Assembly: GCA_964607415.1 (NCBI GenBank)
Contig: CAZSKK010000002.1
Location: 73,991-137,990, forward strand
Source: an uncultured Candidatus Saccharibacteria bacterium
Lineage (GTDB): Bacteria > Patescibacteriota > Dojkabacteria > J137
Direction of reading: 5' to 3'
DNA length: 64,000 nt
Shown: positions 44,651-64,000 of the stretch, piece after piece
Position numbering within the stretch: the stretch's first letter is position 1
Layout of the letters: each line of letters begins with the position of its first letter
The notes under the pieces: model-generated
What the model was told of the DNA's origin: nothing
What the model saw: only the letters and a program-made list of their open reading frames with translations
Databases searched by the model: none
Made by a program: the position numbers and the translations under genes

Positions 44651-47092
44651 TTAGAATCCAAATGAAGGCATTCCGAAAGGATTTGATTTTTCTTTCTCCT
44701 CTTCTTTTATAAATGTACCTCTTAGCTTAACTTCATTTTCAATAATATTTCTATCCTTGCCGTATTTGAGTCTTGAAATCTGTTTAATTATATCTGAAAG
44801 CTCTGGATTTGGTGATGTAATCATACCAAATGGAGATTGATCATACATTGAAGTAATGGAGAATGGTGGTGTTGGCTTACCATCCACAAGCATTTTTATA
44901 AATGCATTTCTGTTTTCTACTTGAATTAAATCATTTCTCGTAAATGCCCCTTCAAACTCCTTTTCTAAAAATTCTGCATCATCAACCCCAACTCTGAATA
45001 CAGCCTTATTACCAACGTTTCCAAAAATAGCATCTCTAATTTTTGTATCCCCTCCAGTTCTTGTCAGCTGTCCTATAAACTGATGGCCTATCGTTAAAGA
45101 TAATTTGTACTTTCTAGCTTCCGACAAAATAATCATAATTCCATCAGTCAAGAAGTTTTGGAACTCATCTATGTACAAAAAGAACGGTTTTCTTTGACTT
45201 TCAGAAACACTTTCACGGCCAAGACCTGCAACCAGTAACTTACCTATTAAAATCATACCCAATAGATTTGCATTGAAGTCTCCAATTTTACCCTTTGAAA
45301 GCTTAGCCAAAAGAATTTTCCCATCATCCATAATATTTCTGAAATTTACTGTAGAATTTTGTTGAGCCACTATTGGTCTTACATAGGCATTTGACAAGAA
45401 ACTTGCAAGTTTTGAAGTAATGTATGGCGTCATATTCTTAAGTGATGCTTCTCCTCCTGCTTTTTCAGCCTGTTTTTTCCAGAAGTCAATAACTTCCTGG
45501 TCATCACACTTGGAAAGTTTATAAGCTCTATAGCCATCATCTGCAAAAATTTTAGGTATTTCTAGAAGTGTTGAGCCCGATTCTTTATCGGCGGTTAAAA
45601 GTAAGATTCCGTATCTCATATACTGCTCAAAAATAGGACCTCCAGTTTTTTTCAAATCGTATAGTGTATCAAAAATATTTAGCATTTCGTTAATTACAAG
45701 AGTTTTTTCTGCTTCAGTGTTGAATTCGAGCATGTTCAGGCCAATTGGTCTTTCAAGATCCGCTGGGTCAAAAACAACAACATCTTCGACTCTCTCTGGT
45801 GGTATTTGTTCCATTATCCTTTCTACATCAGTACCATGTGGGTCAATATAGGCACACCCATGCCCCATTTTTATATCCCTGATCATCATGCTGCTCATAA
45901 AATATGATTTACCAGAACCTGTCTGCCCAATAATGTACATATGCCTCAACCTATCATCAGGCTTAATAAAGATTTCCTTGGTTTTTCCTCTAAAAATGTT
46001 TCTCCCCATATACATGTAATCCTGTTGATATGCAGTTGTTACAAAATCCGCAGCTGGCATTTTGCTAGATAAAAGCCATTGTATGTGGGGAGTTGTTATT
46101 AGCTTGTTAGGGAAATGAAAAAGTGTCGCAAGCTCCGATGAGTTTAAAATCATAGACTCCCTTGGCAATCTGTACACAAAATCCTTTGTTATTTTCTTTA
46201 ATTTCTTTTTATCGACTTTCTTAAATCTATTGCCCCCTTCTTTTGTAAACTGATCAAAAGTACTAAGAATATTAGAAAGATGAGTGTTTGCTGACCCTTC
46301 CATATCGGAAACCACCACTACGCGCACGTCTGTTTGAAACCCAGATTTGCTTGCTTTCACATCGATCATTTCAAGAGTGTCTTCATTCACCTTGACCTTA
46401 CCCTTGTTATCGGGGTCACTCATCTTTTCTTTTATTTTTCTGATATAGTCTTTTGAATCATTTCGCCAGCTTGACCCTGCCGGGGTTATTACAACCTGAT
46501 ATGCGGCAGCTTCGTTTGATTGAAGCTTACTGAAAGCATCTAAAAGTGTAGCAAGAGGATCTACAGGAAGCTCTTCGTAATTTCTGACCGGTAATCTTGA
46601 TTCTTTATCTAATGTAAGTGCAGCAAAAGCAACAGATGCATCATCAGGGAATAAATTGTACTCTTTTACTCTATTAATTTCTGCCTCAGGATAATTACCA
46701 TTAATTTGCCTATCAACAAGATTCGCAATTTTTTCAGGGCAAACCACAAAAAACCTTATATTATCTTTGAACGCAACAATTTCAAAACTTACGAAAGTTT
46801 GGGCATCTAAATATTTTTGAAGTCTTTTTAATTTCTTCCCGATTCCAGTTAATCCTGTAAACATTTGGTCGGCAGCCTTAATCTCAATTTCATTATCTTG
46901 TGGTAATTTAACTTCAAAGTAAGCAAGGCCCAAAGATTTTTTCAAAGAAGACTTTTCTTTTATATTCTTTAGAAACTCCTTAAAAAGTCTTATTGCTAAA
47001 ATTGATATACCTGCAAGTACGACAACAACAGCTAGGATTGTTATCAAAAAACTTGCTATTGCATTTGTATCTACTGAAGGAGCATCGATCAT
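44651..47092 (-). CDS. Membrane-anchored FtsK/HerA-superfamily ATPase of type-IV-secretion type (VirD4/TraG-like, or a VirB3-VirB4-like fusion)
   Basis: 813 aa. N-terminal TM, Walker A IIGQTGSGKSY followed by IDPHGTD, Walker B FFLYIDEFQNF, then ...EARKYKLSLTIGHQFIGQL...AIFGNVGNKAVFRV..., the DEF/R-K-Y-G/HQ..QL motif series of conjugative coupling/transfer ATPases. Confidence 0.6.
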   Translation of the reverse strand: MIDAPSVDTNAIASFLITILAVVVVLAGISILAIRLFKEFLKNIKEKSSLKKSLGLAYFEVKLPQDNEIEIKAADQMFTGLTGIGKKLKRLQKYLDAQTFVSFEIVAFKDNIRFFVVCPEKIANLVDRQINGNYPEAEINRVKEYNLFPDDASVAFAALTLDKESRLPVRNYEELPVDPLATLLDAFSKLQSNEAAAYQVVITPAGSSWRNDSKDYIRKIKEKMSDPDNKGKVKVNEDTLEMIDVKASKSGFQTDVRVVVVSDMEGSANTHLSNILSTFDQFTKEGGNRFKKVDKKKLKKITKDFVYRLPRESMILNSSELATLFHFPNKLITTPHIQWLLSSKMPAADFVTTAYQQDYMYMGRNIFRGKTKEIFIKPDDRLRHMYIIGQTGSGKSYFMSSMMIRDIKMGHGCAYIDPHGTDVERIMEQIPPERVEDVVVFDPADLERPIGLNMLEFNTEAEKTLVINEMLNIFDTLYDLKKTGGPIFEQYMRYGILLLTADKESGSTLLEIPKIFADDGYRAYKLSKCDDQEVIDFWKKQAEKAGGEASLKNMTPYITSKLASFLSNAYVRPIVAQQNSTVNFRNIMDDGKILLAKLSKGKIGDFNANLLGMILIGKLLVAGLGRESVSESQRKPFFLYIDEFQNFLTDGIMIILSEARKYKLSLTIGHQFIGQLTRTGGDTKIRDAIFGNVGNKAVFRVGVDDAEFLEKEFEGAFTRNDLIQVENRNAFIKMLVDGKPTPPFSITSMYDQSPFGMITSPNPELSDIIKQISRLKYGKDRNIIENEVKLRGTFIKEEEKEKSNPFGMPSFGF

Positions 47093-47140
47093 TATTTAGA
47101 ATTAAGATTCATTAATTAACAATAGTTTCAACTAAGGCCG

Positions 47141-47689
47141 CTAGAGCTTTCCTGCCTTCATTTCATTTAAAAACTTTTCGAATTGAATAGCAAGCCACTT
47201 ATTTGATGCTGTATCTGATTGTTTTTTATTTTGCTCTATAAAGTTTAGGGTCTGGGCAATATCTGTAGGATCAAAATTTTTAGGTTTAAATCCATCGCCA
47301 TAAGGCAAAGGCTTTGGCTTTACTATTACAGGTGCAGGAACAGTGCCTTGCACGGCTTGGGTTTGCTGCTGAGACTGATTTTGCTGAGATTCAATGTTCG
47401 ATTCAGGTTTTTTAATATCAAGGCTATGCTCCAAGGTCGACTCCAAAGATTTTTCAGGAGTAGATTGTGGCATTTGTGGTACAGATTCTATTGATCCAGA
47501 AGAGCTACTACTTACCTTTGTTTGCTCAATTTGATTTTTAACAAAGTTATAAGCAACATCTAAAGGTACAACCTGTCCATTAGGTGCATAAACCAAGGGT
47601 GCTCCATTTTCATCATTGCCAAAATAATTAAACCCGAATTGAGACAGTGTTTTTAGAATTTCTTGTATATTTGGATTTTGCGGATTCAT
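47141..47689 (-). CDS. Hypothetical protein with a low-complexity Ser/Gln/Pro-rich centre
   Basis: 182 aa with no recognisable domain. Sits between smpB and the ATPase. Confidence 0.3.
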   Translation of the reverse strand: MNPQNPNIQEILKTLSQFGFNYFGNDENGAPLVYAPNGQVVPLDVAYNFVKNQIEQTKVSSSSSGSIESVPQMPQSTPEKSLESTLEHSLDIKKPESNIESQQNQSQQQTQAVQGTVPAPVIVKPKPLPYGDGFKPKNFDPTDIAQTLNFIEQNKKQSDTASNKWLAIQFEKFLNEMKAGKL

Positions 47690-47766
47690 TTATTAACTTA
47701 TTTAGTTATAAAAGTTTTTAATATTCCAACGTTAAAAAGTTAAATCCTTTTAACTTTTAAACTTTC

Positions 47767-48222
47767 TTATATTCCGTATTTCTTTCTATCCATATCAATA
47801 TTTCTTTTAATATCACGTTCCTTTAGCTTTGCTCTCTTATCAAATTTTTTTAAACCTTTTGCAATTCCAACTTCGACTTTGATTAGATTATTATCTTTTA
47901 TATAAACCATTAGTGGAACTACTGTTAGCCCAGGCACCTTAATTGCTTCACGAATTTTTGCCATTTCTTTTCTTTTTAGCAGTAATTTTCTATCTCTCTT
48001 TACTTCAGCTAAAGTCTTTTCCCCAGCAAATCTTAACGGATTAACTTGAGAACCAAGAAGAAAAATTTCTTCTTTTTTTTCTTTTATATAGCTACTTTTA
48101 AGATTAATTCGGGATTCTTTTATAGATTTAACTTCCCACCCTTGAAGTACAATTCCAGCCTCAAATTTATCTAATATTTCAAAACTAGCATAAGCTTTTT
48201 TATTATTTGCAACTATTTTCAT
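47767..48222 (-). CDS. smpB: SsrA-binding protein SmpB
   Basis: 151 aa, ...[27 protein letters not shown]...[28 protein letters not shown].... Confidence 0.9.
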   Translation of the reverse strand: [151 protein letters not shown]

Positions 48223-48225
48223 TAC

Positions 48226-50712
48226 TTAAAAATCTAATCTGATAACCTTCGTTCCATCTAATACATATATCTTTCTTGAAGCTTCATTAATTACTACTTC
48301 TTCAAGGCTAGAGAACATGTTTTCAGACCCTTTGTAAACAAACTGCTTAACAAATTTCATAGACTTCTGTTCGTTATCTTGAATCTCAAATAATAAGACC
48401 CTTTTATTTTTACCATCAGCAACAACCATAAAATTCTCAGACACATCAAAACTGGTAGCAGAATTCATTGCAGTATAATCTGAGCTAACAAGACCACTAA
48501 AGGTGTCTTGGGTAATAGTATTATCGCCTCCCCCAAGGTATCTTCTAATACCTTTTCCTGAAATCAAAACGTATATTTCGTAAGGTGTTGCAATATCTAT
48601 AGCATTCGCAAGTTCAGGATCTGTTTTCCAATTAGGTGGATTTGTTGCGACATACAGAACACCTCCGCCAACAAACTCATTACCATTCCTATCTCTTTTG
48701 AAAATTTGTTGATGATTTTGATGAATTTCGTAAATTGCTTGGTTGCCTTCAAATACTGAGGCTTCAACAACTTTTCCAATAATTGCCTGAGCCGTACCAT
48801 TAATTCGAGTAAGCGAGTTCGATTGACCTTCTTTAAACCTACCTACTGATGCCGTTTGATCATTATCAAAAACTAGAATATCATTTGAAGGCTCCCTCAC
48901 TAGGAACATTGGTTGGCTTAAGCCTGTAATGTGTTCTTGTGCAGTTGAACCTAAATTTACACCTGTTTTGTATACAACATTTCTGGTTTTATCAGATATG
49001 AATAGGTTACCGTTAGAATATTCTAGATCCGAAAGACTTGCATTAGGAAATACTTTTCCAACATCAACAATTATCTGAGGTTCGGTAATACCATCAACTA
49101 AAAGTAGCTCATCTTTTTCTGTGCCTACCCGTCCGATTATCGTATCTAGCCTATCAGTAAATAAATCTTCTTTCTTTTGAGTTTCAGCACTAGATGCTAG
49201 ATTATTCAAACTTGCAAGAACAAGATTTTTTCTTTGTTCACCTTCATTTTTAGCAGTATCAACTTGTTGAGAAAGACTTTGCAATTGAAGTTCTAAGTTG
49301 GAAACTGCATTTTCAGCTTCATTAACTCTCCTCTTTTCTGCCCTATCACTTTGAGCTTTCCTGATACCAAAAAATAAAACTATAACTAAAATTACGGTTA
49401 CAATAATTAATAATCTTCTATTTCTTTTTAACTTGGAGCCTCGCAAATAGATATCTCTTCTATCACCCGTTCCTACAATTTGGGTCTTAAAAAAAGAGTA
49501 AATCTTGTTTGCTACTAAAGATATTTTGGCAGAAATGATGTTAATAATATGTGCATAAGTTTTCTTGTTATTTTTGAAATGAGCTTTTACTTTTCCATTC
49601 CAAACACCAGAGACCCCGGACGCGGCCTTCTTTGAAAAAATTTCAATTTTACCTGTAGATTCGCGTCCATATACATTATCTTCCAACAACGCTTCATCAT
49701 TTTCATACAAATCTTCCTTTTTGGACATTCTTGGAAGATCATCATCATATTCAAATTCATCATCATCTTCTTCTTCACGGTTTCTGAAGCTTTTGGCTTT
49801 ATCGATAAGGTTAGATGATTTTATTTTTACAGTAGCTTTTAAAGTTCGTAACTTTGAAGTCCATTTGGATTTCAGCGAAATATCCTGAGCATCCTCATCT
49901 ACTTCTAATGCCTCTTCATCTTCAATTACATCTAGTTGTTCTGCATCATTTTTGTCTATTTCAACTGAAGAATGATCAAAACTGTTTGCAATATTTTTTT
50001 CTAAATCATCGTCGTGTTCTATGTCATCGCTTCTTACATCTTCGAGCTCTTGTACAAAAGGCATTTCCCATGACTGCTCTTCATCGCCAATCATTAAAAA
50101 CGCCCATCCGATCTTTGCTTTAATTTCATCCAGCGAGATCAAATTTTTATCATTCATTACTTTTTCAACAAGACTACTTCCGTCTTGCGCCACTTTTGAA
50201 GTTGCCAATGCAACAAGATCTGTTGATTCCAATTCTAGGCTTCCACTTTTCATAAAGCCGCTTTGCGCAGCATCAATCAAAACTTTTGATATTTCAATTG
50301 TTTTTTCACCACGCTTTACGTAAATCTTACTTTCTCCAATTACCAGTGCATACATAATATTTCCTACTATAACGCACACCGCCATTTCTAAATCTAATCC
50401 TTCTTTCAAAATATCTTCCTCTCGAGATAAGACAAAGTCCATTTTAGACTTCATTGACCAAACAGCATTTTCAAGCCTAGCAAGAATCTCGCTTTCCTCT
50501 GAAGAATCATAGTAAGCATTTTGAAGCTCATCAACCATTATTTTAGCAACAGGCTCTACATTTACGTCTTTGGCTGTTGTTTTTAAACGTGTTACAGCAA
50601 AAATGTCCCCAAGTCTTTCATGGATTTCAAGCTCCTTAGGGATATAACCGTAAATGCCAGCCCAGTCATAACCCAGTAATTTTCCAAATGTAAATTCAGT
50701 TCGTAAGTTCAT
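48226..50712 (-). CDS. Large bitopic membrane protein with an N-terminal cytoplasmic domain, acidic linker, TM, coiled coil and a C-terminal beta-propeller-like extracytoplasmic domain
   Basis: 828 aa. Has a DE-rich stretch (...EDEEALEVDEDAQD..., ...EEEDDDEFEYDDD...), the TM LLIIVTVILVIVLFFGI, a coiled coil (...NLELQLQSLSQQVDTAKNEGEQ...), and then beta-rich repeats. Confidence 0.4.
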   Translation of the reverse strand: MNLRTEFTFGKLLGYDWAGIYGYIPKELEIHERLGDIFAVTRLKTTAKDVNVEPVAKIMVDELQNAYYDSSEESEILARLENAVWSMKSKMDFVLSREEDILKEGLDLEMAVCVIVGNIMYALVIGESKIYVKRGEKTIEISKVLIDAAQSGFMKSGSLELESTDLVALATSKVAQDGSSLVEKVMNDKNLISLDEIKAKIGWAFLMIGDEEQSWEMPFVQELEDVRSDDIEHDDDLEKNIANSFDHSSVEIDKNDAEQLDVIEDEEALEVDEDAQDISLKSKWTSKLRTLKATVKIKSSNLIDKAKSFRNREEEDDDEFEYDDDLPRMSKKEDLYENDEALLEDNVYGRESTGKIEIFSKKAASGVSGVWNGKVKAHFKNNKKTYAHIINIISAKISLVANKIYSFFKTQIVGTGDRRDIYLRGSKLKRNRRLLIIVTVILVIVLFFGIRKAQSDRAEKRRVNEAENAVSNLELQLQSLSQQVDTAKNEGEQRKNLVLASLNNLASSAETQKKEDLFTDRLDTIIGRVGTEKDELLLVDGITEPQIIVDVGKVFPNASLSDLEYSNGNLFISDKTRNVVYKTGVNLGSTAQEHITGLSQPMFLVREPSNDILVFDNDQTASVGRFKEGQSNSLTRINGTAQAIIGKVVEASVFEGNQAIYEIHQNHQQIFKRDRNGNEFVGGGVLYVATNPPNWKTDPELANAIDIATPYEIYVLISGKGIRRYLGGGDNTITQDTFSGLVSSDYTAMNSATSFDVSENFMVVADGKNKRVLLFEIQDNEQKSMKFVKQFVYKGSENMFSSLEEVVINEASRKIYVLDGTKVIRLDF

Positions 50713-50841
50713 AAGATATAAAGTTACAGATTTTAGATTTATTGGCGAAGGTCAATAGCTAATAGTCCATGAAAGACTTAAGTAATTAGGATAAACTATC
50801 GACTATTCACACTAACTTAGTATATCAAAAATTTTGGTGTT

Positions 50842-51057
50842 TTAGGCTAAAATGAATATCGCCAGAATAATTGTCAACACAACTATATAAAAATTTGTGA
50901 AGAATGTGAAGAAGAAAGAATTCTTAGTTCTTAGCTCGCGATTCATCTTTGTCATATCAAGGTATAGTTTAAAACCTAAAAGCAAATGCCCTAAAGCGAA
51001 AATTATCGCTCCAATCTTAACTAATTCTAAAACTTCAGGTAATACAAGATTTTCCAT
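50842..51057 (-). CDS. Small 2-TM membrane protein
   Basis: 71 aa, two hydrophobic helices. Its start overlaps the stop of the upstream gene by 1 nt, suggesting translational coupling. Confidence 0.3.
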   Translation of the reverse strand: MENLVLPEVLELVKIGAIIFALGHLLLGFKLYLDMTKMNRELRTKNSFFFTFFTNFYIVVLTIILAIFILA

Positions 51058-55932: not shown

Positions 55933-55944
55933 AATGTTTTTGAA

Positions 55945-56995: not shown

Positions 56996-57086
56996 ATTAA
57001 TTGCTTATGGGTTAGAGATTTACGTGTTTGCGCTATGCTGAAAGAACTTTTGAACTCATTAACTCGCTAACACAAAAACACACAAA

Positions 57087-57668: not shown

Positions 57669-57744
57669 TTATTTAGATTAATACTCGTTTAAAGTTATAA
57701 GGTTAGAATGTTTTAACGTTGAAACATTACAACATTTTAACCAG

Positions 57745-58383
57745 TTACGTTATAGTTATTACTGTTCCTGGATCTGGATCACCCAGAATTATTAACTGAT
57801 TTAAACTACCCAACCCTAGTGCGCTGAATACCAATTGTACTATTATAATCACCATCCATAAAAGTATAAACCCAGGAATTATCGCCTTCAAAATTTCATT
57901 ATATATAGCTTGTATTTCTTCTGGATTTTCAGTATTCGCTCTTTTTACTGCTCCAAGATAAACTCCTCTGCCTAATGCATATAGCGAACCTGCGCCTAAA
58001 GTTGTAGTAATCAAGACATTAATTAATGCTACAAGCTTTCTATTTGATTTGACATAAAATCTAGTACCAAAAGCGTCAACTTCGTCAAAAACTTCAGGCT
58101 CTGTAATACTGCTTGATGAGCCTCTGCACTTATTATTACAACAAATGGTTGTAGGATTTAATATCTTTGCATTTACGCACTGGAAATCTGGTTCGTAACA
58201 GTCCGTATCCTCGCTATTTTCACACGCCCTTGGACATGAAACAGGTGTACCAAGTGGAGGTAGACAATCAGAAGTACCTTTAACCTTCTGACTTTCTGGT
58301 ACTGTTAACGCTACTAAAAATATGAAAACAGCAGAAAATAATATAATAAAAAATTTTAGTCGATTTAGTTGAGACATAGTCAA
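57745..58383 (-). CDS. VirB2/TrbC-like pilin paralogue 4, Cys-rich N-domain
   Basis: 212 aa. Signal peptide, Cys-rich domain with about 11 Cys, TM, loop ...LGAVKRANTENPEEIQAIYNEILKAI..., TM. Confidence 0.45.
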   Translation of the reverse strand: MTMSQLNRLKFFIILFSAVFIFLVALTVPESQKVKGTSDCLPPLGTPVSCPRACENSEDTDCYEPDFQCVNAKILNPTTICCNNKCRGSSSSITEPEVFDEVDAFGTRFYVKSNRKLVALINVLITTTLGAGSLYALGRGVYLGAVKRANTENPEEIQAIYNEILKAIIPGFILLWMVIIIVQLVFSALGLGSLNQLIILGDPDPGTVITIT

Positions 58384-58412
58384 TAATTAAGAATAGGAAT
58401 CAAACAAGGCTT

Positions 58413-58892
58413 CTAAATTGTAAAAAGTTGATCTGTTCCCAACAATCCAGCAACTGCGTTTACAATTGTTGGTGCTAAAACTGCTATAGCAAATCCTGTT
58501 GCCGCTGCAATTATAATCTTTGTACTGCTTGCAATTTTCTCTGCATCTGTTTTGGCAGTTAATCTAACCCACCCTCCATATAAAACCATTGCTCCAAATG
58601 TTAAGATAAAAATAGGTCTGATTAAAGAAGTGGCTACATTGATTAGTTCTTCTAGACTATCGTATTTTGAAGGATTTGGAATTGTGTAATCAAACTCCTG
58701 AGCAGAAACTCCAAAGAGTTTTCCTGCAAAAGCAAGTACAAAAAGAAATGATGTAATTGTTAAGAACAGCTGTTTTGATTTTTTCATGCATACTTGTGTC
58801 ATCCCGAGGGAAATCGAGGGATGAATTATATAAACGTATGTCATGGTTCGATTTCCCTCACCATGACAACTGACCTTAATATACTTTCGCAT
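58413..58892 (-). CDS. VirB2/TrbC-like pilin paralogue 5; the true start is likely the internal MKKSKQLF...
   Basis: 159 aa. Signal peptide, short N-domain, TM, loop ...VRLTAKTDAEKIASSTKIIIAA..., TM. The annotated N-terminal 36 aa overlap the upstream clp-like gene and a hairpin region. Confidence 0.45.
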   Translation of the reverse strand: MRKYIKVSCHGEGNRTMTYVYIIHPSISLGMTQVCMKKSKQLFLTITSFLFVLAFAGKLFGVSAQEFDYTIPNPSKYDSLEELINVATSLIRPIFILTFGAMVLYGGWVRLTAKTDAEKIASSTKIIIAAATGFAIAVLAPTIVNAVAGLLGTDQLFTI

Positions 58893-61461
58893 CTAACCCA
58901 TCAAATTCAACACCTTTTCCACTAACCAATTCGCGACTAATAATCAAATCTGCTAGTTTGTCTTCAATTGTGTCTTGCACTATTCTTCTTAGTTCTCTTG
59001 CACCGTAAACAATGTTATACCCAAGTTTAGTTAATTCATTAAGTGTTTCCTGATTCCACTTTAGGTCCATTCCTTTGTCGTTCAATCTTTTGTCTATATC
59101 ATTTAACATTATTTCGCAAATTTGTTCAACTTCTGATTTATTTAGTGGCTTAAACATTACGATTTTATCAAATCTATTTAAAAACTCGATTCTATAAATT
59201 TTTCTAAGTTCTGGTAAAGTTTGGGTTTGTATATCTTCGTATTTAATATTTTTTGCTGTCAATTCTGCAATTTCTTTCGATGCGGCATTACTCGTTGCAA
59301 TAATAATTGTATTAGAGAAATCAATAACTCTACCAGCCCCATCAGTAATCCTTCCATCGTCCAATATCTGAAGAAATAAATCAAGAACTTTTGGATTTGC
59401 TTTTTCTAATTCGTCAAGAAGGATTAAACTGAATGGTCTTGATTTAACAGCTTCTGTTAGAAGCCCGCCCAAATAGTTTCCGTTAGAATCTGAATATCCG
59501 ATCAATCTATTCAAATTCTTATCCTCGTGAAATTCTGACATATCAAGCCTAATCATCAACTTCTCGTCACCATAATAAAGCCCCGCCAGTGTCTTTGCTA
59601 CTTCCGTTTTCCCTACTCCTGTAGGGCCATAGAACAAAAAAGAAGCCACAGGCCTTCTGCCACTTGCTAAACCTGACCTTGATCTTCTTAAAGCACTTGC
59701 TACCGATCTTATTGCCTGATCTTGTCCTATTACTCTTTTATGCATTTCTTGTTCGAGGCTTTGAAGTAGTTTCGATTCTTCATCAGAAATACTCCCAACA
59801 TTTACACCTGTTTTTTTCTTTAATAATTCATCTACAGTATTTTCATCAACAAATTTTAAGCCTAAATTTTTTGCTGTTATAAAAGATTCTTCCAAAAGTG
59901 CTATCCCCTTGTCTGGCATTGATCTTTCGTATTCAAATTTTGGGGCAAATTCTACAATTCTTTTTATTGCTTTAAATCTTATTGGTATTTGATATTTTGA
60001 CTCAAGTGGTTTTACTTCATCCAAAAGTATTTGCAATGAAAGATTACTTGCAGGTTCGTTCAAAAATACTGTTGAAAATAAACTTGCCAGATTTTTAAGT
60101 GGCTTAACACCCTGGTTGTAATACTCGTTTGTGGTTGTAGCAATCACTTTAATATTGCTTTGACTAATCATATTTACAATCAAATTAATTACTTCCAATC
60201 GACCTTCAGTTCTAATTGTTAAAACTTGAGAGAAATCCTCTAAAACCAAAACAATATTTCCAGATGAAACTATTTCTTCCAGAATTTTTTGTAAGTTCAT
60301 CTTAAAATTATCGATTGAAGAAGATTTTGTAAAAACTTTATTTAGATCAATAACAACCATTCTGTAATCTTTTAAAGAATCAGGAACATCTTCAACAACC
60401 ATTTTTGTTGCTATGCTTCGCAGAAAATGAGTTTTTCCAACTCCCGGCTCTCCAATTAAAAGGCATGCCGCACCATTTTTTCGCTCTAAAATTCTGAATA
60501 AATCTGTAGTTTCAGATTCTCTGCCAATCATTACTTCAAAGTTATTAGTAGCCGCCTGAGTTGTAAAGTCAGATCCAAATGTATCCAAAGTTGGAGTAGC
60601 TTTAGAAGTGTATGCCCTGTTAATTGCACCCTTTGGTTTTAATTTAGATAAACGTTGCCAGATTGTAAAGTACTGAGATTTTGTTCTTTCATTCTTAATC
60701 CACATCCTTAAGCCTTGAATTTCAAGCTCGCCAATATCTAAATCTTTTAAAGGTTGATTCCAGTAAAATCTTGCCAATGTTGTTAATAAAACCACTTCAT
60801 CGATTTTATTAGCCTCAAGAGTTAAAGCTTCATTAAATACGCGTAAAAATAGATCCTTAAAATTTGTATCAAAGCTTGTATCTTTTGTTTTAAAGTATTC
60901 AATAATTCTTTGTCTAATGATTGATTGCTCTGCACCTAGTCTACTTAGAACAATCTTGGAAATTTCAGGATTTTGTAAAATATTGTCGGATAATGCAAGA
61001 AGAAATTGCGAATCGTATTTAAAATAGATTTTATCTATCAAATTAAAAACCGAATCTGAAAGATAATTATCTATTTCTACATTGTGTAATTTGCCATCCG
61101 CCTTTATTTTCTTTTTAACGTGAGTAAGCTCCAAATCTTCCCAGTTTTCGCCAAATTGATTTTTATTTCGATTTAGAAATAAAGAATAAAGAATGAAAAA
61201 TATTGAAAAATAAGGAATCAAAAACAGAGTTTTGGTCGGGGAAAAAACTTCTTTCACTTCAAAACTTCCGTTTAGGATTATAAGCAAATATGGAATTATT
61301 AATATAAATAGCCCTAAAAACAGAACGAATTTTGCAGCATTTTTTTCAATTGCGTCTTTGGATTCATGTTCACCATGGAACCTAAATAAATCATCAAAAT
61401 CTATAACCAGATTTAGATTTGAAAGGGTTCCTATTTGTGTTTTGCCTTTATAGATTTTCAT
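58876..61461 (-). CDS. Membrane-anchored double-AAA+ ATPase of the Clp/Hsp100 (ClpA/ClpB-like) family
   Basis: 861 aa. N-terminal TM helices, D1 Walker A LLIGEPGVGKTHF, D2 Walker A FYGPTGVGKTEVAKTLAG, ...LILLDELEKANPKVLDLFLQILDDGRITD... and sensor-2 ...GARELRR... motifs. No Clp_N domain. Confidence 0.7.
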   Translation of the reverse strand: MKIYKGKTQIGTLSNLNLVIDFDDLFRFHGEHESKDAIEKNAAKFVLFLGLFILIIPYLLIILNGSFEVKEVFSPTKTLFLIPYFSIFFILYSLFLNRNKNQFGENWEDLELTHVKKKIKADGKLHNVEIDNYLSDSVFNLIDKIYFKYDSQFLLALSDNILQNPEISKIVLSRLGAEQSIIRQRIIEYFKTKDTSFDTNFKDLFLRVFNEALTLEANKIDEVVLLTTLARFYWNQPLKDLDIGELEIQGLRMWIKNERTKSQYFTIWQRLSKLKPKGAINRAYTSKATPTLDTFGSDFTTQAATNNFEVMIGRESETTDLFRILERKNGAACLLIGEPGVGKTHFLRSIATKMVVEDVPDSLKDYRMVVIDLNKVFTKSSSIDNFKMNLQKILEEIVSSGNIVLVLEDFSQVLTIRTEGRLEVINLIVNMISQSNIKVIATTTNEYYNQGVKPLKNLASLFSTVFLNEPASNLSLQILLDEVKPLESKYQIPIRFKAIKRIVEFAPKFEYERSMPDKGIALLEESFITAKNLGLKFVDENTVDELLKKKTGVNVGSISDEESKLLQSLEQEMHKRVIGQDQAIRSVASALRRSRSGLASGRRPVASFLFYGPTGVGKTEVAKTLAGLYYGDEKLMIRLDMSEFHEDKNLNRLIGYSDSNGNYLGGLLTEAVKSRPFSLILLDELEKANPKVLDLFLQILDDGRITDGAGRVIDFSNTIIIATSNAASKEIAELTAKNIKYEDIQTQTLPELRKIYRIEFLNRFDKIVMFKPLNKSEVEQICEIMLNDIDKRLNDKGMDLKWNQETLNELTKLGYNIVYGARELRRIVQDTIEDKLADLIISRELVSGKGVEFDGLDAKVY

Positions 61462-61536
61462 AAAGTTCGAATAACCCCATTCTTCTTATTCTCGAATACA
61501 CAATGTGTATTCTCGCCCTTTAATTAAAGGTAGGGG

Positions 61537-61854
61537 TCACAATATCATTCTTGCCACCTGCACCAACGGCAGAAATGGCAACACAATTAAAATTAATAAC
61601 GCCAAGAAATAAGGCATAATCATTATTACTGAAAACAAAGTACCAAATCCAATCCACCAAAATCTAATAAATACACCAATGAATTTACCAGCGCCTGTGT
61701 TATCTCCAAACATTGGTACAAACAAATTTTTAGCCATGGGTAGTGTATTTGTAAGGTTTAGTAAAAACACAAACCTGTACAAAGTGAGCCTAAAAAAGCT
61801 CCTAACTTTAACAAGATAGTACCAGTAGAAGAAGTTTATAAAGTATTCATTCAT
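61537..61854 (-). CDS. Small polytopic membrane protein
   Basis: 105 aa, 3 hydrophobic helices. A hairpin repeat element lies immediately upstream. Confidence 0.35.
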   Translation of the reverse strand: MNEYFINFFYWYYLVKVRSFFRLTLYRFVFLLNLTNTLPMAKNLFVPMFGDNTGAGKFIGVFIRFWWIGFGTLFSVIMIMPYFLALLILIVLPFLPLVQVARMIL

Positions 61855-62405: not shown

Positions 62406-63923
62406 CTAACGCTGAACCAGGTTTCCATTTCTATCATAACTCTGCCCTGCCCATTTGCTGAGTTTATCTTCCACAACAAGCCTTGGCTGGGCGTAAGTTT
62501 TTCGGGACATATCTTTTATTTGATTTTTAAGGCCAAAATTTTCAAACTTTGCTGGCAGCGAAATTGCAGTAAACGGTTTGGTTTGTGTTCCGTCAATAGT
62601 CATTTTTAGAACAATTCTAAATCGCTCAAGGTTTACCAAATCTTCTCCTGTTAAATAAGGTGAATACTCTTTTTCCAATCGATTTGCGTCTTTTGGTCCA
62701 ACAACAAAGTTAATCATTGTTCCAACATTTCCAAAGATTGCATCTTGAATATTTCTATCAAGTTGATCAATATATTGATGTGCTACAACTAAATTTAGAC
62801 CATATTTTCTGGCTTCAGATAGGATTTTTACAAAAGTTTCTGTAGAAAAGTTTTGAAATTCATCAACGTATAAATAAAAATCTCGTCTTTCATTTTCAGG
62901 CATTTTGGCCCGCTGCATTGCATTTGTGTAAAGCCTTGTAATTAACATTCCACCTAAAAGCATGCTATTCTCCTCTCCAATTTTTCCTTGAGATAGATTA
63001 ATCAAAATGATTTTTCCTGAGTTCATTGCTTCCTGCAAATCAACAGTAGATTTAACTTGGCCAATCATATTTCTAATCATTGAAGAGCTTAAAAATCTTC
63101 CCACTTTATTTTGAATTGGCGATAGTGTATCCGAAAGCAATTTTTGATTTTTCGCCATTTCGGCAAATTCAACATTCCAGAATTTTAGTAAAAACGGATC
63201 TTTTACTTGTTTTAATAAAAATCTTCTATAATTCTCGTCAGTTAAAATCCTTTGCACAGCAACTAAAGAAACATTTTGGCAATTTAGCAAAGTTAAAATT
63301 GTTGTAGTTAAAATATATTGAAGCCTTGGTCCCCACGATTCGCCAAAAAGCCTTTTGAAAGCTGTAACAATTCCATCTGCCAGAAGTTCCTTTGACTCAC
63401 CTTCTTTTAAGTCCAGCATGTTTAGTGCTACAGGAAAGTCGGTATCCGATGGATCAATATAAATTACGTCTTTCATTCTGTGTTCTGGAATATAGTTTAG
63501 AAGTTCTTCAACCGCATCCCCATGTGGATCAATAAATGCAAGTCCTTCACCGCTCAAAATATCACCGTAAATCATATTTTTTAACATTACAGATTTTCCA
63601 GCTCCTGTTTTTCCAACAACATACATATGCCTTCGTCTATCTTCTTTTTTAATTCCAAAAGGTGTATGTATGCTTCTAAAATCGGTTACGGCAAAAAGTC
63701 TTGCGTTTTCAGTTGGTAGGTCCAAAGGCATCTCAAGCTTACGGGAGTTTGCCCAATTGATTTTTGGCGTTTGTACAGATTCGTTTGGAAGGTGATAAAT
63801 TGATGCAACTTCTTCAATATTTAAAATTCCTGTTTCAAATTCGTTTAAAAATCTTTCGGAAAATTTGTGCTTTAAATCTAGTTTTTGATTTTGCCTTTGA
63901 CCTTTAATGCTATCTTTAATCAT
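62406..63923 (-). CDS. Second, soluble FtsK/HerA-superfamily type-IV-secretion-type ATPase, paralogous to the C-terminal half of the 44651..47092 protein
   Basis: 505 aa. Walker A VVGKTGAGKSV followed by IDPHGDAV, ...YIDPSD...ALNML..., Walker B FYLYVDEFQNF, and ...EARKYGLNLVVAHQYIDQL...AIFGNVGTMINFVVGP.... Confidence 0.6.
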   Translation of the reverse strand: MIKDSIKGQRQNQKLDLKHKFSERFLNEFETGILNIEEVASIYHLPNESVQTPKINWANSRKLEMPLDLPTENARLFAVTDFRSIHTPFGIKKEDRRRHMYVVGKTGAGKSVMLKNMIYGDILSGEGLAFIDPHGDAVEELLNYIPEHRMKDVIYIDPSDTDFPVALNMLDLKEGESKELLADGIVTAFKRLFGESWGPRLQYILTTTILTLLNCQNVSLVAVQRILTDENYRRFLLKQVKDPFLLKFWNVEFAEMAKNQKLLSDTLSPIQNKVGRFLSSSMIRNMIGQVKSTVDLQEAMNSGKIILINLSQGKIGEENSMLLGGMLITRLYTNAMQRAKMPENERRDFYLYVDEFQNFSTETFVKILSEARKYGLNLVVAHQYIDQLDRNIQDAIFGNVGTMINFVVGPKDANRLEKEYSPYLTGEDLVNLERFRIVLKMTIDGTQTKPFTAISLPAKFENFGLKNQIKDMSRKTYAQPRLVVEDKLSKWAGQSYDRNGNLVQR

Positions 63924-64000
63924 ATTTGATTTTAACTTTGTACTTCTTTGCGAAAACGAATTTAGTTCAACCGCATCAAACTGTTTTAAAGACGCCAGGC

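What the first reader, a model, noticed from the sequence alone, without database searches (positions are those of the whole stretch)
44651..64000. Divergent type-IV-secretion/conjugative-pilus-like cluster next to a tRNA/recombinase hotspot
A contiguous minus-strand block of about 19 kb continues past the window end. It encodes two paralogous FtsK/HerA-type ATPases (44651..47092, 62406..63923) with the DPHG / DEFQNF / R-K-Y-G / HQ..QL motif series of VirD4/VirB4-class ATPases. It also has five tandem VirB2/TrbC-like pilin paralogues, a membrane-anchored double-AAA+ Clp/Hsp100-like ATPase, a coiled-coil SpoIID/LytB-domain wall-remodelling protein, and at least seven further membrane proteins. 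It begins immediately after a tyrosine recombinase and a tRNA-Ile(TAT) surrounded by partial tRNA copies. No recognisable VirB11, VirB9/10 secretin-like or relaxase gene is present, and the housekeeping smpB sits inside the block, so it is not a standard conjugative element. It may be a lineage-specific cell-surface secretion or DNA-transfer apparatus, perhaps used for cell-cell interaction or DNA uptake together with the comEA/comEC genes found elsewhere in the window.
Basis: partly seen in the sequence, partly recalled or inferred. Interest (0 to 1): 0.85.

Follow-up and report, generated by a model that had tools for sequence, protein, structure and literature searches.

The report
Dojkabacteria chromosomal pilin-array locus
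This stretch is a conserved piece of the chromosome of an ultra-small Candidatus Dojkabacteria (CPR/Patescibacteria) bacterium: it carries the six-gene conjugative-type pilin array recently described for this phylum, with lineage-specific helper genes and two phylum-wide secretion-type ATPases nearby, and it is not a mobile DNA-transfer element.

Summary
There are two corrections. There are six pilin-like genes, not five. The '505-aa' ATPase is cut by the window end; its orthologues are about 800 aa.

The organism is a Candidatus Dojkabacteria. Gene order from polA to the membrane-anchored Clp (35392..61854) is the same in other Dojkabacteria, including the recombinase, tRNA-Ile(TAT) and smpB. 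It is therefore chromosomal backbone, not an island.

The unit that stays linked is a small membrane protein, a membrane-anchored Hsp100 lacking the M-domain and the ClpP loop, and six VirB2-type (PF18895) pilins with one-to-one orthologues. In the closer relatives a coiled-coil membrane protein, a SpoIID/LytB enzyme, a bPH protein and a beta-propeller protein follow.

Pilin arrays of this kind, relaxase-less and essential in Saccharibacteria, were published in 2023-2025. This is a lineage variant of a known system. The Hsp100-pilin linkage and the ATPase N-domain fold were not found in the literature searched.

The parts
62406..64000 (-). ATPase B: the C-terminal ~530 codons of a ~800-aa membrane-anchored VirB4-N-domain/T4CP-like ATPase, cut by the window end
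   Evidence: Frame is open to base 64000. Orthologues are ~800 aa with a homologous N-domain. TrwB E 1e-8 by sequence. Pfam TrwB_AAD_bind, DUF87 and TraG-D_C are above cut-off. 40-68% identical across the 80 best Patescibacteria loci kept, of 596 confirmed.
61537..61854 (-). Small membrane protein (105 aa) that precedes the membrane-anchored Clp
   Evidence: Hydrophobic segments. 45-50% identical orthologues sit directly upstream of, and overlap, the Clp gene in L083 and L086; a 111-aa gene does the same in L092. No Pfam or NCBIfam hit.
58876..61461 (-). Membrane-anchored Hsp100 (TM-Clp): N-terminal TM hairpin plus two AAA+ modules; lacks the M-domain and the ClpP-docking loop; D1 looks degenerate
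   Evidence: AAA_2, ClpB_D2-small and AAA hits. ClpB, ClpA and ClpV models all score below their curated cut-offs. Alignment with the window's own ClpC shows a ~60-aa M-domain deletion, a 14-aa deletion of the LGF loop, D1 Walker B DE->ED and a degenerate D1 pore loop. Full-length homologues are found only in Dojkabacteria.
58413..58892 (-). Pilin 1 (VirB2/TrbC-type, PF18895); likely true start at 58787
   Evidence: PF18895 36 bits against a cut-off of 26.6. Orthologues 52-62% identical at the same array position. Alignment A4.
57745..58383 (-). Pilin 2, with a Cys-rich (8 Cys) ectodomain
   Evidence: Signal peptide plus two TM segments. hhalign to pilin 1, 3 and 6 profiles gives 87% probability. 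Positional orthologues 39-48% identical.
57087..57668 (-). Pilin 3
   Evidence: phmmer to pilins 4 and 5 gives E 1e-11 to 1e-14. hhalign 98% to pilins 4 and 5, 81% to pilin 1. Orthologues 31-47% identical.
56471..56995 (-). Pilin 4
   Evidence: hhalign 92.7% to pilin 1, 99.7% to pilin 5. Orthologues 40-42% identical.
55945..56418 (-). Pilin 5
   Evidence: 46% identical to pilin 4. Orthologues 49-56% identical. Weak PF18895 match, E 0.14.
55192..55932 (-). Pilin 6 (PF18895), with Cys-rich N- and C-terminal ectodomains (10 Cys)
   Evidence: PF18895 31.5 bits against a cut-off of 26.6. Orthologues 42-57% identical.
53774..55108 (-). Fast-evolving membrane protein (444 aa) with flanking helical regions
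   Evidence: Hydrophobic segments at 231-285. Positional orthologues of 486-518 aa are only 20-22% identical. No family hit.
51951..53711 (-). Signal-anchored coiled-coil SpoIID/LytB peptidoglycan-remodelling enzyme; candidate VirB1 analogue
   Evidence: TIGR02669 102 bits against a cut-off of 83.3; Pfam SpoIID. Orthologues 44-51% identical at the same position. Also present in L093.
51057..51806 (-). Membrane protein with a bacterial PH (bPH_2) domain
   Evidence: PF03703 23.2 bits against a cut-off of 22. Orthologues 44-54% identical.
50842..51057 (-). 71-aa two-TM protein; its start overlaps the bPH gene stop
   Evidence: Weak DUF5657 match, E 0.022.
48226..50712 (-). Large bitopic protein (828 aa): cytoplasmic N-domain, acidic linker, one TM, coiled coil, C-terminal (inferred extracellular) NHL/PknD-type beta-propeller
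   Evidence: Profile against PDB: Pizza/PknD propeller, E 2.5e-10. TM at 428-455. 748 representatives of the family; every one that carries a name is from Dojkabacteria. Orthologues at the same position in L087 and L088.
47767..48222 (-). smpB (housekeeping; inside the block but not part of the apparatus)
   Evidence: PF01668 E 5e-46. Same position in L087 and L088.
47141..47689 (-). 182-aa protein of unknown function directly upstream of ATPase A
   Evidence: Orthologues 40-41% identical at the same position. No family hit.
44651..47092 (-). ATPase A (813 aa): one TM helix, a VirB4-N-terminal-domain-like DUF8128 domain, and a T4CP-like nucleotide-binding domain with a helical insert
43487..44547 (+). 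Flanking backbone, not part of the apparatus: Xer-type tyrosine recombinase (43487-44356) and tRNA-Ile(TAT) (44472-44547)
   Evidence: Both are present in the same gene order in L087 and L088, although the tRNA-Ile is inverted in the window.

Best explanation
WHAT IT IS
The block is a collinear piece of a Candidatus Dojkabacteria chromosome. It brings together three things.

1. A Dojkabacteria-specific operon-like module (48226..61854). It encodes a small membrane protein, a membrane-anchored ClpP-independent Hsp100 unfoldase, six anciently diverged VirB2/TrbC-type pilins, a membrane coiled-coil protein, a SpoIID/LytB peptidoglycan-remodelling enzyme, a bPH membrane protein, and a bitopic protein with a C-terminal NHL beta-propeller that is probably extracellular.
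2. The housekeeping gene smpB.
3. The two members of a Patescibacteria-wide pair of membrane-anchored ATPases. They combine a VirB4-type N-domain with a coupling-protein-like motor domain.

This is the Dojkabacteria version of the relaxase-less, pilin-array-bearing 'Patescibacteria T4SS'.

HOW IT PROBABLY WORKS (all inferred)
- The six pilins are inserted into the membrane through Sec, and their signal peptides are removed.
- They form a pool of two-helix hairpins with variable ectodomains, some of them disulfide-rich.
- An ATPase extracts them and assembles them into a heteromeric VirB2-type filament or stalk. The six conserved positions suggest one major subunit plus specialised minor or tip subunits, rather than antigenic variants.
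- The SpoIID/LytB enzyme opens the cell wall locally, in the way VirB1 does.
- The propeller protein and the other membrane proteins form the envelope scaffold or a contact sensor.
- The energy source is the co-located membrane-anchored Hsp100, a VirB4-like ATPase, or both. The VirB4-like candidates are the DUF8128 pair and the canonical VirB4/TrsD expected elsewhere in the genome.
- The structure most likely serves contact with, or transfer to or from, a host cell in an epibiotic lifestyle. It is unlikely to serve conjugation.
For: SHOWN HERE
- Organism. The best relatives of ATPase B are Dojkabacteria MAGs at 53-68% identity.
- Pilins. PF18895, the marker used for VirB2 in the published census, is above cut-off for pilins 1 and 6. 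All six share the topology of a signal peptide plus two TM segments.
- Pilin homology. Profile-profile links are 81-99.7% probability. Controls against other membrane proteins give 0.1-0.3%.
- Pilin orthology. Each pilin has a positional orthologue in three other genomes. Each pilin's best match in every other genome is its positional counterpart (31-62% identity, E 1e-23 to 1e-94), well ahead of any non-positional pilin there; only pilin 4 against pilin 5 comes close. Within the window the paralogues are 22-46% identical.
- Module synteny. The order small TM protein (a separate gene in two of these three), TM-Clp, six pilins, coiled-coil protein, SpoIID and bPH is conserved in L083, L084 and L086; a ~800-855-aa gene follows in each, and its homology to the window's propeller protein was tested in L087/L088, which overlap L086/L084.
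- TM-Clp stays with a pilin array in 7 of 7 Dojkabacteria genomes, including two deep lineages. In the window the GroESL side of TM-Clp has been rearranged away while the pilin side is kept.
- TM-Clp lacks the M-domain and the ClpP loop.
- Backbone. The order propeller protein, smpB, small protein, ATPase A, tRNA-Ile, Xer, tRNA-Met x2, FtsH, PolA is conserved. G+C is uniform.

FROM THE LITERATURE
- Patescibacteria carry VirB2 arrays of 2-11 genes. Relaxases are nearly absent. 5,713 T4CP homologues were counted, mostly far from virB4 (PMC12102498).
- The two Dojkabacteria genomes whose Table S1 rows were read are scored VirB4-positive.
- The S. epibionticum T4SS locus has six divergent VirB2-like pilins and is essential for epibiotic growth (PMC10633639; PMC12857230).
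Against: - No canonical VirB4/TrsD, VirB3/PrgI, VirB6 or VirB8 was detected in the block's ORFs or in the ten largest ORFs elsewhere in the window; about 20 smaller ORFs outside the block were not scanned. The hallmark of a T4SS is therefore missing locally, and its presence elsewhere in this genome is only inferred.
- Conserved gene order in these compact genomes also covers plainly unrelated genes (smpB, FtsH, PolA, GroESL). Synteny alone does not prove that TM-Clp, SpoIID, the bPH protein, the propeller protein or ATPase A work with the pilins.
- In relatives TM-Clp is also adjacent to GroES/GroEL, and to ClpP in L084. That would fit a general chaperone role.
- Pilins 2-5 do not reach the Pfam cut-off on their own. 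The pilin profile finds no solved pilin by sequence.
- The promoter and terminator scan gave no operon information: counts were below the shuffle expectation.
- No filament has been shown for any Patescibacteria T4SS.
Confidence: 0.72

Rival explanations
1. Neighbourhood by coincidence. Only the six pilin genes are T4SS-related. TM-Clp is a general membrane-protein quality-control chaperone that belongs with the GroESL/ClpP neighbourhood. SpoIID/LytB, the bPH protein and the propeller protein are ordinary envelope or division genes. The two ATPases do an unrelated core job. Gene order is simply frozen in a small genome.
For: - Housekeeping smpB lies 3 nt after the propeller gene.
- Synteny extends to FtsH and PolA.
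- In 5 relatives TM-Clp (with its small TM gene where present) follows GroES-GroEL directly; in the sixth, L084, a ClpP gene lies between GroEL and TM-Clp.
- ATPase B is not syntenic with the module in any relative. Phylum-wide it sits beside secDF, alaS and mnmA.
- In L092 the pilin array is not followed by SpoIID.
Against: - TM-Clp stays with the pilin array, not with GroESL, across the rearrangement seen in the window.
- The window already has a canonical ClpC with Clp_N, an M-domain and the ClpP loop. TM-Clp is therefore an extra, specialised, ClpP-independent paralogue restricted to the lineage that has this array layout.
- A wall-lytic enzyme next to T4SS genes is a recurrent theme. Peptidase and lysozyme genes next to virB4 are essential in S. 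epibionticum.
Confidence: 0.25
2. Integrated conjugative or mobilisable element. On this reading the block is a horizontally acquired island inserted at tRNA-Ile by the adjacent tyrosine recombinase.
For: - A recombinase and a tRNA lie at one end.
- There are partial tRNA copies: a 15-nt T-arm repeat at 44613-44627 and a 27-nt tRNA-Met fragment at 42417-42443.
- T4SS-type genes are present.
Against: - The recombinase, tRNA-Ile(TAT), both tRNA-Met genes and the flanking FtsH and PolA are in the same order in other Dojkabacteria 50-67% identical at protein level.
- There is no G+C shift.
- No relaxase was found, and smpB lies inside the block.
- The partial tRNA repeats lie only 73-91 nt from their tRNAs and enclose nothing.
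Confidence: 0.03
3. DNA-import apparatus. The VirB2-type filament and the VirB4/T4CP-like ATPases import DNA, like the archaeal Ced/Ted systems, and feed ComEC/DprA for nucleotide scavenging or transformation.
For: - ComEC (8707-10119) and DprA (1516-2667) are in the window.
- Both ATPases give weak hits to the NCBIfam model for the archaeal DNA-translocating ATPase CedD (E 2.5e-5 and 1.2e-6, far below cut-off).
- The ATPase motor domain resembles DNA-coupling proteins.
- In the ABY1 class, T4SS loci co-localise with comF, recG and radA.
Against: - The competence genes are more than 34 kb away and are not syntenic with the module.
- In Saccharibacteria competence depends on type IV pili and ComEC. 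A comEC deletion is viable whereas the T4SS is essential, so the essential T4SS role is not ComEC-linked.
- No DNA-processing gene lies in the block.
Confidence: 0.1
4. The two DUF8128 ATPases are not secretion motors at all. They are core membrane-anchored translocases, for example an FtsK-like chromosome or Xer-associated function, or export of some housekeeping substrate.
For: - The pair is near-universal and unusually conserved: 40-56% identity outside the three closest MAGs, among the 80 best loci kept.
- It sits in a housekeeping neighbourhood.
- ATPase A lies close to the Xer-type recombinase in three Dojkabacteria genomes.
- The T4CP homologue of S. epibionticum is reported as non-essential for epibiotic growth, and exaptation has been suggested.
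Against: - The Pfam FtsK_SpoIIIE model scores below cut-off (19-21 bits against 24).
- No FtsK appears among the top 50 fold matches. Those are VirB4, T4CPs, HerA and DndH.
- The N-domain is specifically VirB4-like, and in VirB4 that domain docks the ATPase to the T4SS membrane complex (established knowledge).
Confidence: 0.15

Closest known systems
Patescibacteria-type T4SS with a VirB2-like pilin array (S. epibionticum SEML1_0006-0019, Wang et al. 2023; census by Quinonero-Coronel et al. 2025)
   Same: Chromosomal and relaxase-less, in a monoderm CPR bacterium. A tandem array of divergent PF18895/VirB2-like pilins, six both here and in S. epibionticum. A cell-wall hydrolase nearby. T4CP-type ATPases encoded apart from virB4.
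   Different: No VirB4/TrsD, PrgI/VirB3 or VirB6 was detected next to the array or among the window ORFs scanned. The array is instead flanked by a membrane-anchored Hsp100, a SpoIID/LytB enzyme (rather than the peptidase and lysozyme of S. epibionticum), a bPH protein and an NHL-propeller protein. The Hsp100 and the propeller protein appear restricted to Dojkabacteria; the others were not surveyed outside the class. The 2025 census paper does not mention Clp, AAA+ or SpoIID.
VirB4 (TrwK of R388; PDB 7O42, 8RTD)
   Different: Sequence models do not recognise it as VirB4: TIGR00929 scores 14.6 bits against a cut-off of 643 for ATPase B, and the ATPase A profile does not hit TrwK at E<=1. It has its own N-terminal TM helix. 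There is no adjacent VirB3, VirB6 or VirB8. It comes as a phylum-wide paralogue pair among housekeeping genes.
Type IV coupling proteins (TrwB/VirD4, TraD, DotL, Cagbeta)
   Same: These are the best sequence matches for the motor domain (TrwB 1e-8, DotL 1e-5, TraD-type NCBIfam models). Pfam TrwB_AAD_bind and TraG-D_C are above cut-off. Fold TM-score is 0.57-0.70 over the whole soluble TrwB, DotL or Cagbeta chain.
   Different: A ~300-aa VirB4-like domain lies between the membrane anchor and the motor domain, which no classical T4CP has. No relaxase or DNA-processing partner is present. All NCBIfam T4CP models score far below their cut-offs.
Hsp100/Clp unfoldases (ClpC, ClpB, ClpA, ClpV)
   Same: Two AAA+ modules, a ClpB_D2-small domain, and an intact D2 Walker A, Walker B and pore-loop tyrosine.
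   Different: N-terminal TM hairpin. No M-domain. No ClpP-docking loop. D1 Walker B is DE->ED and the D1 pore loop is degenerate. It scores below every curated equivalog cut-off and is found only in Dojkabacteria. Like ClpV it would act without a protease on a dedicated structural substrate; that comparison is an analogy only.
MPF-FATA conjugative T4SS of monoderms (pCF10, pIP501, pGO1) and VirB1-type wall hydrolases
   Same: Monoderm envelope, no outer-membrane core complex, and a dedicated peptidoglycan hydrolase.
   Different: Those systems lack VirB2 pilins and carry a relaxase and oriT. Here pilins are present and no relaxase was found. The hydrolase is of the SpoIID/LytB type, not SLT/CHAP.
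Archaeal Ced/Ted DNA-import systems
   Same: VirB2-like pilins and a VirB4/HerA-class ATPase used for something other than conjugative export. Both ATPases give weak CedD-model hits.
   Different: No homology was detected beyond these weak hits, and there is no evidence of DNA import here.

Membership tests
VirB2/TrbC-type T4SS pilin (Pfam PF18895) | Score above the Pfam gathering cut-off (26.6 bits) | tested here: met
   Pilin 1 scores 36.0 bits and pilin 6 scores 31.5 bits. Pilins 2-5 do not reach it on their own (best E 0.14). They are linked to pilins 1 and 6 by hhalign at 81-93% probability and to one another at 98-99.7%, with controls at 0.1-0.3%.
VirB2/TrbC-type T4SS pilin (Pfam PF18895) | Signal peptide followed by a hairpin of two hydrophobic helices joined by a short polar loop | tested here: met
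   The hydrophobicity scan shows an N-terminal segment plus two TM segments in all six.
VirB2/TrbC-type T4SS pilin (Pfam PF18895) | Polymerises into an extracellular filament | not testable with these tools
   Needs microscopy or biochemistry. It has not yet been shown for any Patescibacteria T4SS.
Patescibacteria-clade T4SS as defined in the 2025 census | VirB4 of the Patescibacteria clade, usually with TrsD, PrgI/VirB3 and VirB6 within 20 genes | tested here: not met
   No hit to VirB4, TrsD (PF11130), VirB3/PrgI, VirB6 or VirB8 models in the block's ORFs or in the ten large ORFs scanned elsewhere in the window. The census reports pilin genes away from virB4 in about 40% of assemblies. It scores the two Dojkabacteria genomes checked as VirB4-positive, so the gene is probably elsewhere in this genome.
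VirB4 ATPase | N-terminal domain with the VirB4 fold plus a C-terminal P-loop domain | tested here: met
VirB4 ATPase | Recognition by curated VirB4 sequence models | tested here: not met
   For ATPase B, TIGR00929 gives E 0.007 and 14.6 bits against a cut-off of 643.1, and NF045975 gives E 0.0011. ATPase A gets no VirB4-model hit at all, and its family profile does not hit TrwK in the PDB at E<=1.
Type IV coupling protein (VirD4/TraG/TrwB) | Motor domain with an all-alpha insert, recognised by T4CP domain models | tested here: met
   TrwB_AAD_bind scores 25-35 bits against a cut-off of 20.5. TraG-D_C scores 25-27 bits against 22. Fold TM-score to TrwB is 0.63-0.70.
Type IV coupling protein (VirD4/TraG/TrwB) | N-terminal transmembrane domain leading directly into the motor domain; works with a relaxase | tested here: not met
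   There is one TM helix followed by a ~300-aa VirB4-like domain. No relaxase is in the block. Full-length NCBIfam T4CP models score 40-45 bits against cut-offs of 250 or more.
Integrative conjugative element / genomic island | Variable presence among relatives, compositional shift, boundary repeats enclosing the element, relaxase | tested here: not met
   The gene order, including the recombinase and tRNAs, is conserved in L087 and L088. G+C is 0.31-0.37 throughout. The repeats are 73-91 nt from their tRNAs. No relaxase hit.
ClpB/ClpC/ClpA/ClpV Hsp100 | Two AAA+ modules | tested here: met
   AAA (two stretches), AAA_2, AAA_lid_9 and ClpB_D2-small.
ClpB/ClpC/ClpA/ClpV Hsp100 | Equivalog-level score; an M-domain (ClpB/ClpC) or a ClpP-docking loop (ClpA/ClpC) | tested here: not met
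   ClpB scores 470 against 1232, ClpA 398 against 993, ClpV 384 against 885. The M-domain and the LGF loop are deleted relative to the window's own ClpC.
SpoIID/LytB domain protein | TIGR02669 above its cut-off | tested here: met
   102 bits against 83.3. Pfam SpoIID scores 32.9 against 23. Catalytic residues were not examined.
   19.0 and 20.8 bits against a cut-off of 24. No FtsK is among the top 50 Foldseek hits.

The most novel reading that the evidence does not exclude
In Dojkabacteria the VirB2-type pilin array is driven by its own membrane-anchored, protease-independent Hsp100 unfoldase. This enzyme would extract pilins from the membrane or disassemble the filament, which would make it a new kind of pilus motor. 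In addition, the phylum-wide 'coupling-protein' pair would really be membrane-tethered VirB4-architecture ATPases, a third lineage beside VirB4 and VirD4. They would then be candidates for the missing dislocases of pilin arrays encoded far from virB4.
Probability: 0.15. Interest if true: 0.8.

Novelty: new variant of a known kind. Interest (0 to 1): 0.5.

Why it matters
Patescibacteria make up a large share of uncultured bacterial diversity. Their T4SS-like system with a pilin array is the only T4SS known to be essential for its bearer (S. epibionticum), yet its mechanism and substrate are unknown.

This locus adds three things that can be tested.

1. The six-pilin array is ancient and fixed in order, with one-to-one orthologues across Dojkabacteria, and S. 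epibionticum has the same number of pilins. That argues for six structural roles rather than antigenic variation.
2. In one class the array is stably linked to a specialised membrane-anchored Hsp100 and a SpoIID-type wall enzyme. Both are concrete candidates for assembly factors.
3. The abundant 'T4CP homologues' of the phylum carry a VirB4-type N-domain. That changes what they should be tested for, and it bears on how VirB4 and VirD4 diverged.

None of this is a new kind of system. It refines a recently described one.

Tried and rejected
- Exact look-up of the source contig, to read beyond 64 kb. The truncated ATPase is not on record. The exact TM-Clp and ATPase A proteins returned only short Logan contigs of 2.7-14 kb, although a 445-kb NCBI contig is listed. 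The far boundary could not be read.
- tblastn and phmmer of all block proteins against 80 loci around ATPase B orthologues. No other block gene was found there apart from FtsH in two loci, weak Xer-type hits in seven and one ClpC-like hit. This rejected the idea that the ATPases and the pilin module form one conserved cluster.
- Promoter and terminator consensus scan. Counts were below the shuffle expectation, so it gave no information.
- Pilin-1 profile against PDB sequences. No hit at E<=10.
- Pfam at E<=10 for the small membrane proteins and the coiled-coil protein. Only sub-threshold noise.
- Pfam on nine members of the propeller-protein family. Nothing significant; T2SSM at E 0.05 in 3 of 9 members.
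- Rfam on six relatives' loci. The whalefall-1 hit is not conserved.
- Literature search for DUF8128. No papers.
- Considered and rejected: a mobile island (conserved synteny), FtsK proper, a phage terminase, ClpP-dependent proteolysis by TM-Clp (docking loop deleted), and pilins as fast-switching variants (orthologues are more similar than paralogues).
- Not attempted for lack of jobs: structure predictions of the propeller protein, the coiled-coil protein, TM-Clp or pilin oligomers.

Full report
**1. What is in the sequence**

The region 44651..64000 is a run of minus-strand ORFs. Gaps are -1 to 144 nt, apart from one 551-nt non-coding gap at 61855-62405. G+C is 0.31-0.37, as in the rest of the window outside the rRNA operon.

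- Two paralogous P-loop ATPases, with DUF87, TrwB_AAD_bind and TraG-D_C above the Pfam cut-offs.
- SmpB (E 5e-46).
- A bPH_2 membrane protein.
- A coiled-coil SpoIID/LytB protein (TIGR02669 102 bits against a cut-off of 83.3).
- Two PF18895 'T4SS_pilin' proteins.
- A double-AAA+ Clp protein with an N-terminal hydrophobic hairpin.
- Just outside the block: a tyrosine recombinase, tRNA-Ile(TAT) and FtsH.

No VirB4, TrsD, VirB3/PrgI, VirB6, VirB8, VirB9/10, VirB11 or relaxase model hits any ORF of the block or the ten large ORFs scanned elsewhere in the window. Those large ORFs are housekeeping: a canonical ClpC, PolA, a PBP, ComEC, Rho, S1 and DprA, alongside an rRNA operon.

**2. Corrections to the observation**

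*Six pilins, not five.* There are six tandem small genes between 55192 and 58892. All six have an N-terminal signal-like segment plus two hydrophobic helices. The first and last pass the PF18895 cut-off. The middle three are clear mutual paralogues (phmmer E 1e-11 to 1e-27). Profiles built from four genomes link pilins 1, 2, 3, 4 and 6 at 81-93% hhalign probability and pilins 3, 4 and 5 at 98-99.7%. Two other membrane proteins of the locus score 0.1-0.3% as negative controls.

*The '505-aa' ATPase is truncated.* The ATPase listed at 62406..63923 is cut by the window end. Its frame is open up to base 64000. In all related loci the orthologue extends about 250-300 codons further upstream, with a domain homologous to the N-domain of the 813-aa paralogue.

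*Start of pilin 1.* It probably starts at the internal Met (58787), by comparison with its 102-122-aa orthologues.

**3. Organism and genomic status**

The closest relatives of ATPase B are Candidatus Dojkabacteria MAGs at 53-68% identity.

Looking up homologues of the membrane-anchored Clp and of ATPase A in other Dojkabacteria gave loci with the following gene order:

small TM protein, TM-Clp, six small genes (first and/or last flagged PF18895), a ~490-520-aa protein, a SpoIID protein of ~590 aa, a ~225-265-aa protein, a ~800-855-aa protein, [one extra gene in one genome], SmpB, a ~190-aa protein, the DUF8128 ATPase, [one or two small genes], tRNA-Ile(TAT), tyrosine recombinase on the opposite strand, a ~140-aa protein, two tRNA-Met genes, FtsH, PolA.

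That is the order found in the window from 61854 down to 35392, apart from the optional extra genes and an inverted tRNA-Ile. The recombinase and the tRNAs are therefore part of a conserved chromosomal backbone.

The partial tRNA copies are real. There is a 15-nt T-arm repeat 91 nt downstream of tRNA-Ile and a 27-nt tRNA-Met fragment 73 nt from its tRNA. They enclose nothing. The island or 'hotspot' reading is rejected.

**4. Which genes belong together**

*The pilins.* Each of the six has a one-to-one positional orthologue in three other genomes. In every one of them its best match is the positional counterpart (31-62% identity, E 1e-23 to 1e-94), well ahead of any non-positional pilin; pilin 4 against pilin 5 is the only near tie. 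Paralogues within the window are 22-46% identical. The array is therefore old and fixed in order.

*TM-Clp.* It is next to a PF18895-led array in all seven Dojkabacteria genomes seen. These include two deep lineages in which TM-Clp is only 40-43% identical. In the relatives its other neighbour is GroES-GroEL, with ClpP in one genome. In the window that side has been rearranged: ATPase B and the 551-nt gap replace GroESL, while the pilin side is intact. This is the best available argument that the small TM protein, TM-Clp and the pilins form the tighter unit.

*Lineage restriction.* Full-length TM-Clp homologues are confined to Dojkabacteria, and every member of the large bitopic protein's family that carries a name is from Dojkabacteria.

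*Limits of synteny.* smpB lies 3 nt after the bitopic gene. That shows that tight packing alone does not prove shared function.

*ATPase B.* It is not adjacent to the module in any relative, including the closest one, L001. Clustering the neighbours of its orthologues in 80 Patescibacteria loci gives a sigma-70-region-4-like HTH protein (39 loci), SecD/SecF (28), MnmA, AlaRS, RluD, MurC-type ligases and DnaB. No pilins appear.

*ATPase A.* It keeps its position four genes (five in L087) after the module in the two other genomes examined, L087 and L088.

**5. The ATPases**

A and B are 37% identical over 479 aa. In several classes they are tandem, with one small gene between them (L018). This matches the pattern of 'T4CP' genes 83 and 85 in Table S3 of the 2025 census. 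In other lineages B is split into an N-domain gene and an ATPase gene (L011).

*By sequence.* The motor domain is nearest to coupling proteins. TrwB matches B at E 1e-8. DotL matches the A-family profile at 1e-5. TraD-type NCBIfam models give E 1e-10 to 1e-12, far below their cut-offs. TrwK/VirB4 is not hit at E<=1.

*Database annotation.* Homologues carry PF26449 (DUF8128). NCBI names them 'TraM recognition domain-containing' or 'type IV secretion system DNA-binding domain-containing' protein.

*By structure.* An AlphaFold2 model of A (pLDDT 88) matches full-length TrwK/VirB4 best by Foldseek E-value (5e-14). It matches Cagbeta, DotL and TrwB best by TM-score (0.57-0.70 over the target).

*Conclusion.* The proteins consist of one TM helix, a VirB4-type N-domain and a coupling-protein-like motor. 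They do not fall into FtsK proper or terminases. They also fail the full membership tests of both VirB4 and T4CP. I found no paper mentioning DUF8128. That the census scored these proteins as T4CP is my inference.

**6. The membrane-anchored Clp**

Aligned with the window's own canonical ClpC, TM-Clp shows:
- an N-terminal TM hairpin;
- an alignable N-domain;
- an intact D1 Walker A, but Walker B changed from DE to ED, and a degenerate D1 pore loop;
- a ~60-residue deletion of the M-domain;
- an intact D2, including the pore-loop tyrosine;
- a 14-residue deletion that removes the LGF ClpP-docking loop.

It is therefore a protease-independent unfoldase tethered to the membrane with its rings in the cytoplasm. 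It scores below all ClpB, ClpA and ClpV equivalog cut-offs.

**7. Other module genes**

- The SpoIID/LytB protein has a signal anchor and a ~250-residue coiled coil ahead of the catalytic domain.
- The 828-aa protein has a cytoplasmic N-domain, an acidic linker, one TM helix and a coiled coil. Its C-terminal domain matches NHL/PknD-type six-bladed propellers (E 2.5e-10 to the PknD-derived 'Pizza' proteins).
- The 444-aa membrane protein evolves fast: 20-22% identity among orthologues.
- None of these shows detectable homology to VirB3, VirB6 or VirB8.

**8. Comparison with what is known**

- Wang et al. 2023 (PMC10633639) found an essential T4SS cluster with essential pilins in the saccharibacterium S. 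epibionticum, with no recognisable coupling protein or relaxase.
- Quinonero-Coronel et al. 2025 (PMC12102498) surveyed 3,035 Patescibacteria genomes.
  - They found VirB4 in 2,417 genomes; the two Dojkabacteria genomes whose Table S1 rows were read are among them.
  - VirB2-like pilins (PF18895 among the markers) lay near virB4 in only 1,135 of 1,948 assemblies.
  - They counted 441 pilin arrays of 2-11 genes, averaging 25% identity within an array.
  - They counted 5,713 T4CP homologues, of which only 148 were near virB4, and almost no relaxases.
- The 2025 FEMS review (PMC12857230) notes that the S. epibionticum array has six divergent VirB2-like pilins. It also notes that comEC is dispensable while the T4SS is not.

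The present locus is a member of this recently described kind. Three points were not found in the papers searched:
- the stable link of the array to a membrane-anchored Hsp100 and a SpoIID-type enzyme in Dojkabacteria (the census text mentions neither Clp nor AAA+ nor SpoIID);
- the one-to-one orthology of all six pilins;
- the VirB4-like N-domain of the 'T4CP' pair.

**9. Most likely mechanism (inferred)**

1. The pilins are inserted through Sec and processed.
2. An ATPase extracts them from the membrane pool and assembles them into a heteromeric VirB2-type filament or stalk.
3. The SpoIID/LytB enzyme opens the wall locally.
4. The propeller protein and the other membrane proteins scaffold or sense at the envelope.
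5. Energy comes from TM-Clp, from a VirB4-type ATPase, or from both.
6. The role is host-cell contact or transfer, not conjugation.

Shown here: homology, architecture and conserved linkage. Inferred: assembly into a filament, the energy source and the biological role.

**10. Verdict**

The region is a chromosomal, lineage-specific variant of a known system, not a mobile element and not categorically new. Interest is moderate at 0.5. The system is hot and mechanistically open, and the locus yields specific hypotheses, but a specialist would recognise it at once.

Noticed in passing
window 61873-61927 (+), within the non-coding gap 61855-62405: Rfam whalefall-1 RNA (RF01762) hit just above the gathering score (39.6 bits against 37, E 7e-7). 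It lies on the strand opposite to the flanking genes. A terminator-like hairpin on the minus strand (61918-61895) overlaps it. The rest of the gap (about 61950-62140) is an odd purine-rich AG tract.
   Followed up: partly
window 44384-44635: tRNA-Ile(TAT) (44472-44547) is flanked by a 20-nt, 95% inverted repeat (44460-44479 / 44539-44558). It is inverted relative to the same gene in the two Dojkabacteria relatives L087 and L088. A tRNA-like 5' half lies at about 44384-44450, and a 15-nt copy of the T-arm at 44613-44627. This may be a local inversion or duplication remnant.
   Followed up: partly
window 42417-42443 and 42479-42552: A 27-nt, 93% identical copy of the 3' part of tRNA-Met(CAT) lies 73 nt from the intact gene. 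A second tRNA-Met(CAT) is at 42863-42936.
   Followed up: no
window 44472-44547; L087 13815-13890; L088 13338-13413: A tRNA-Ile with a UAU anticodon is conserved in three Dojkabacteria genomes. From general knowledge this suggests AUA decoding without lysidine modification. Not examined further.
   Followed up: no
window 24782-27355 (-): A canonical ClpC with Clp_N, M-domain and LGF ClpP-docking loop is encoded 31 kb away. The membrane-anchored Clp is therefore an additional, specialised paralogue.
   Followed up: yes
L011 8837-10231 and 10234-11928; similar in about 40 other loci: In many non-Dojkabacteria Patescibacteria the orthologue of ATPase B is split into a separate N-domain (DUF8128) gene and an ATPase gene. 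This parallels the TrsD + VirB4 split reported for the canonical Patescibacteria VirB4.
   Followed up: partly
L009, L011, L013-L017, L020, L022, L024, L028, L029 and others (39 of 80 loci): A ~360-aa protein resembling sigma-70 region 4 / HTH lies directly upstream of the ATPase B orthologue, often preceded by secD/secF. This is a conserved neighbourhood of unknown meaning.
   Followed up: no
window 62406..63923 in the ORF list: The ORF tool lists this ORF as complete from an internal ATG, although its frame is open to the window end. The listed length of 505 aa is therefore an artefact.
   Followed up: yes
L084 9104-9703: In one Dojkabacteria relative a ClpP gene sits directly upstream of the membrane-anchored Clp, even though that Clp lacks the ClpP-docking loop.
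   Followed up: no
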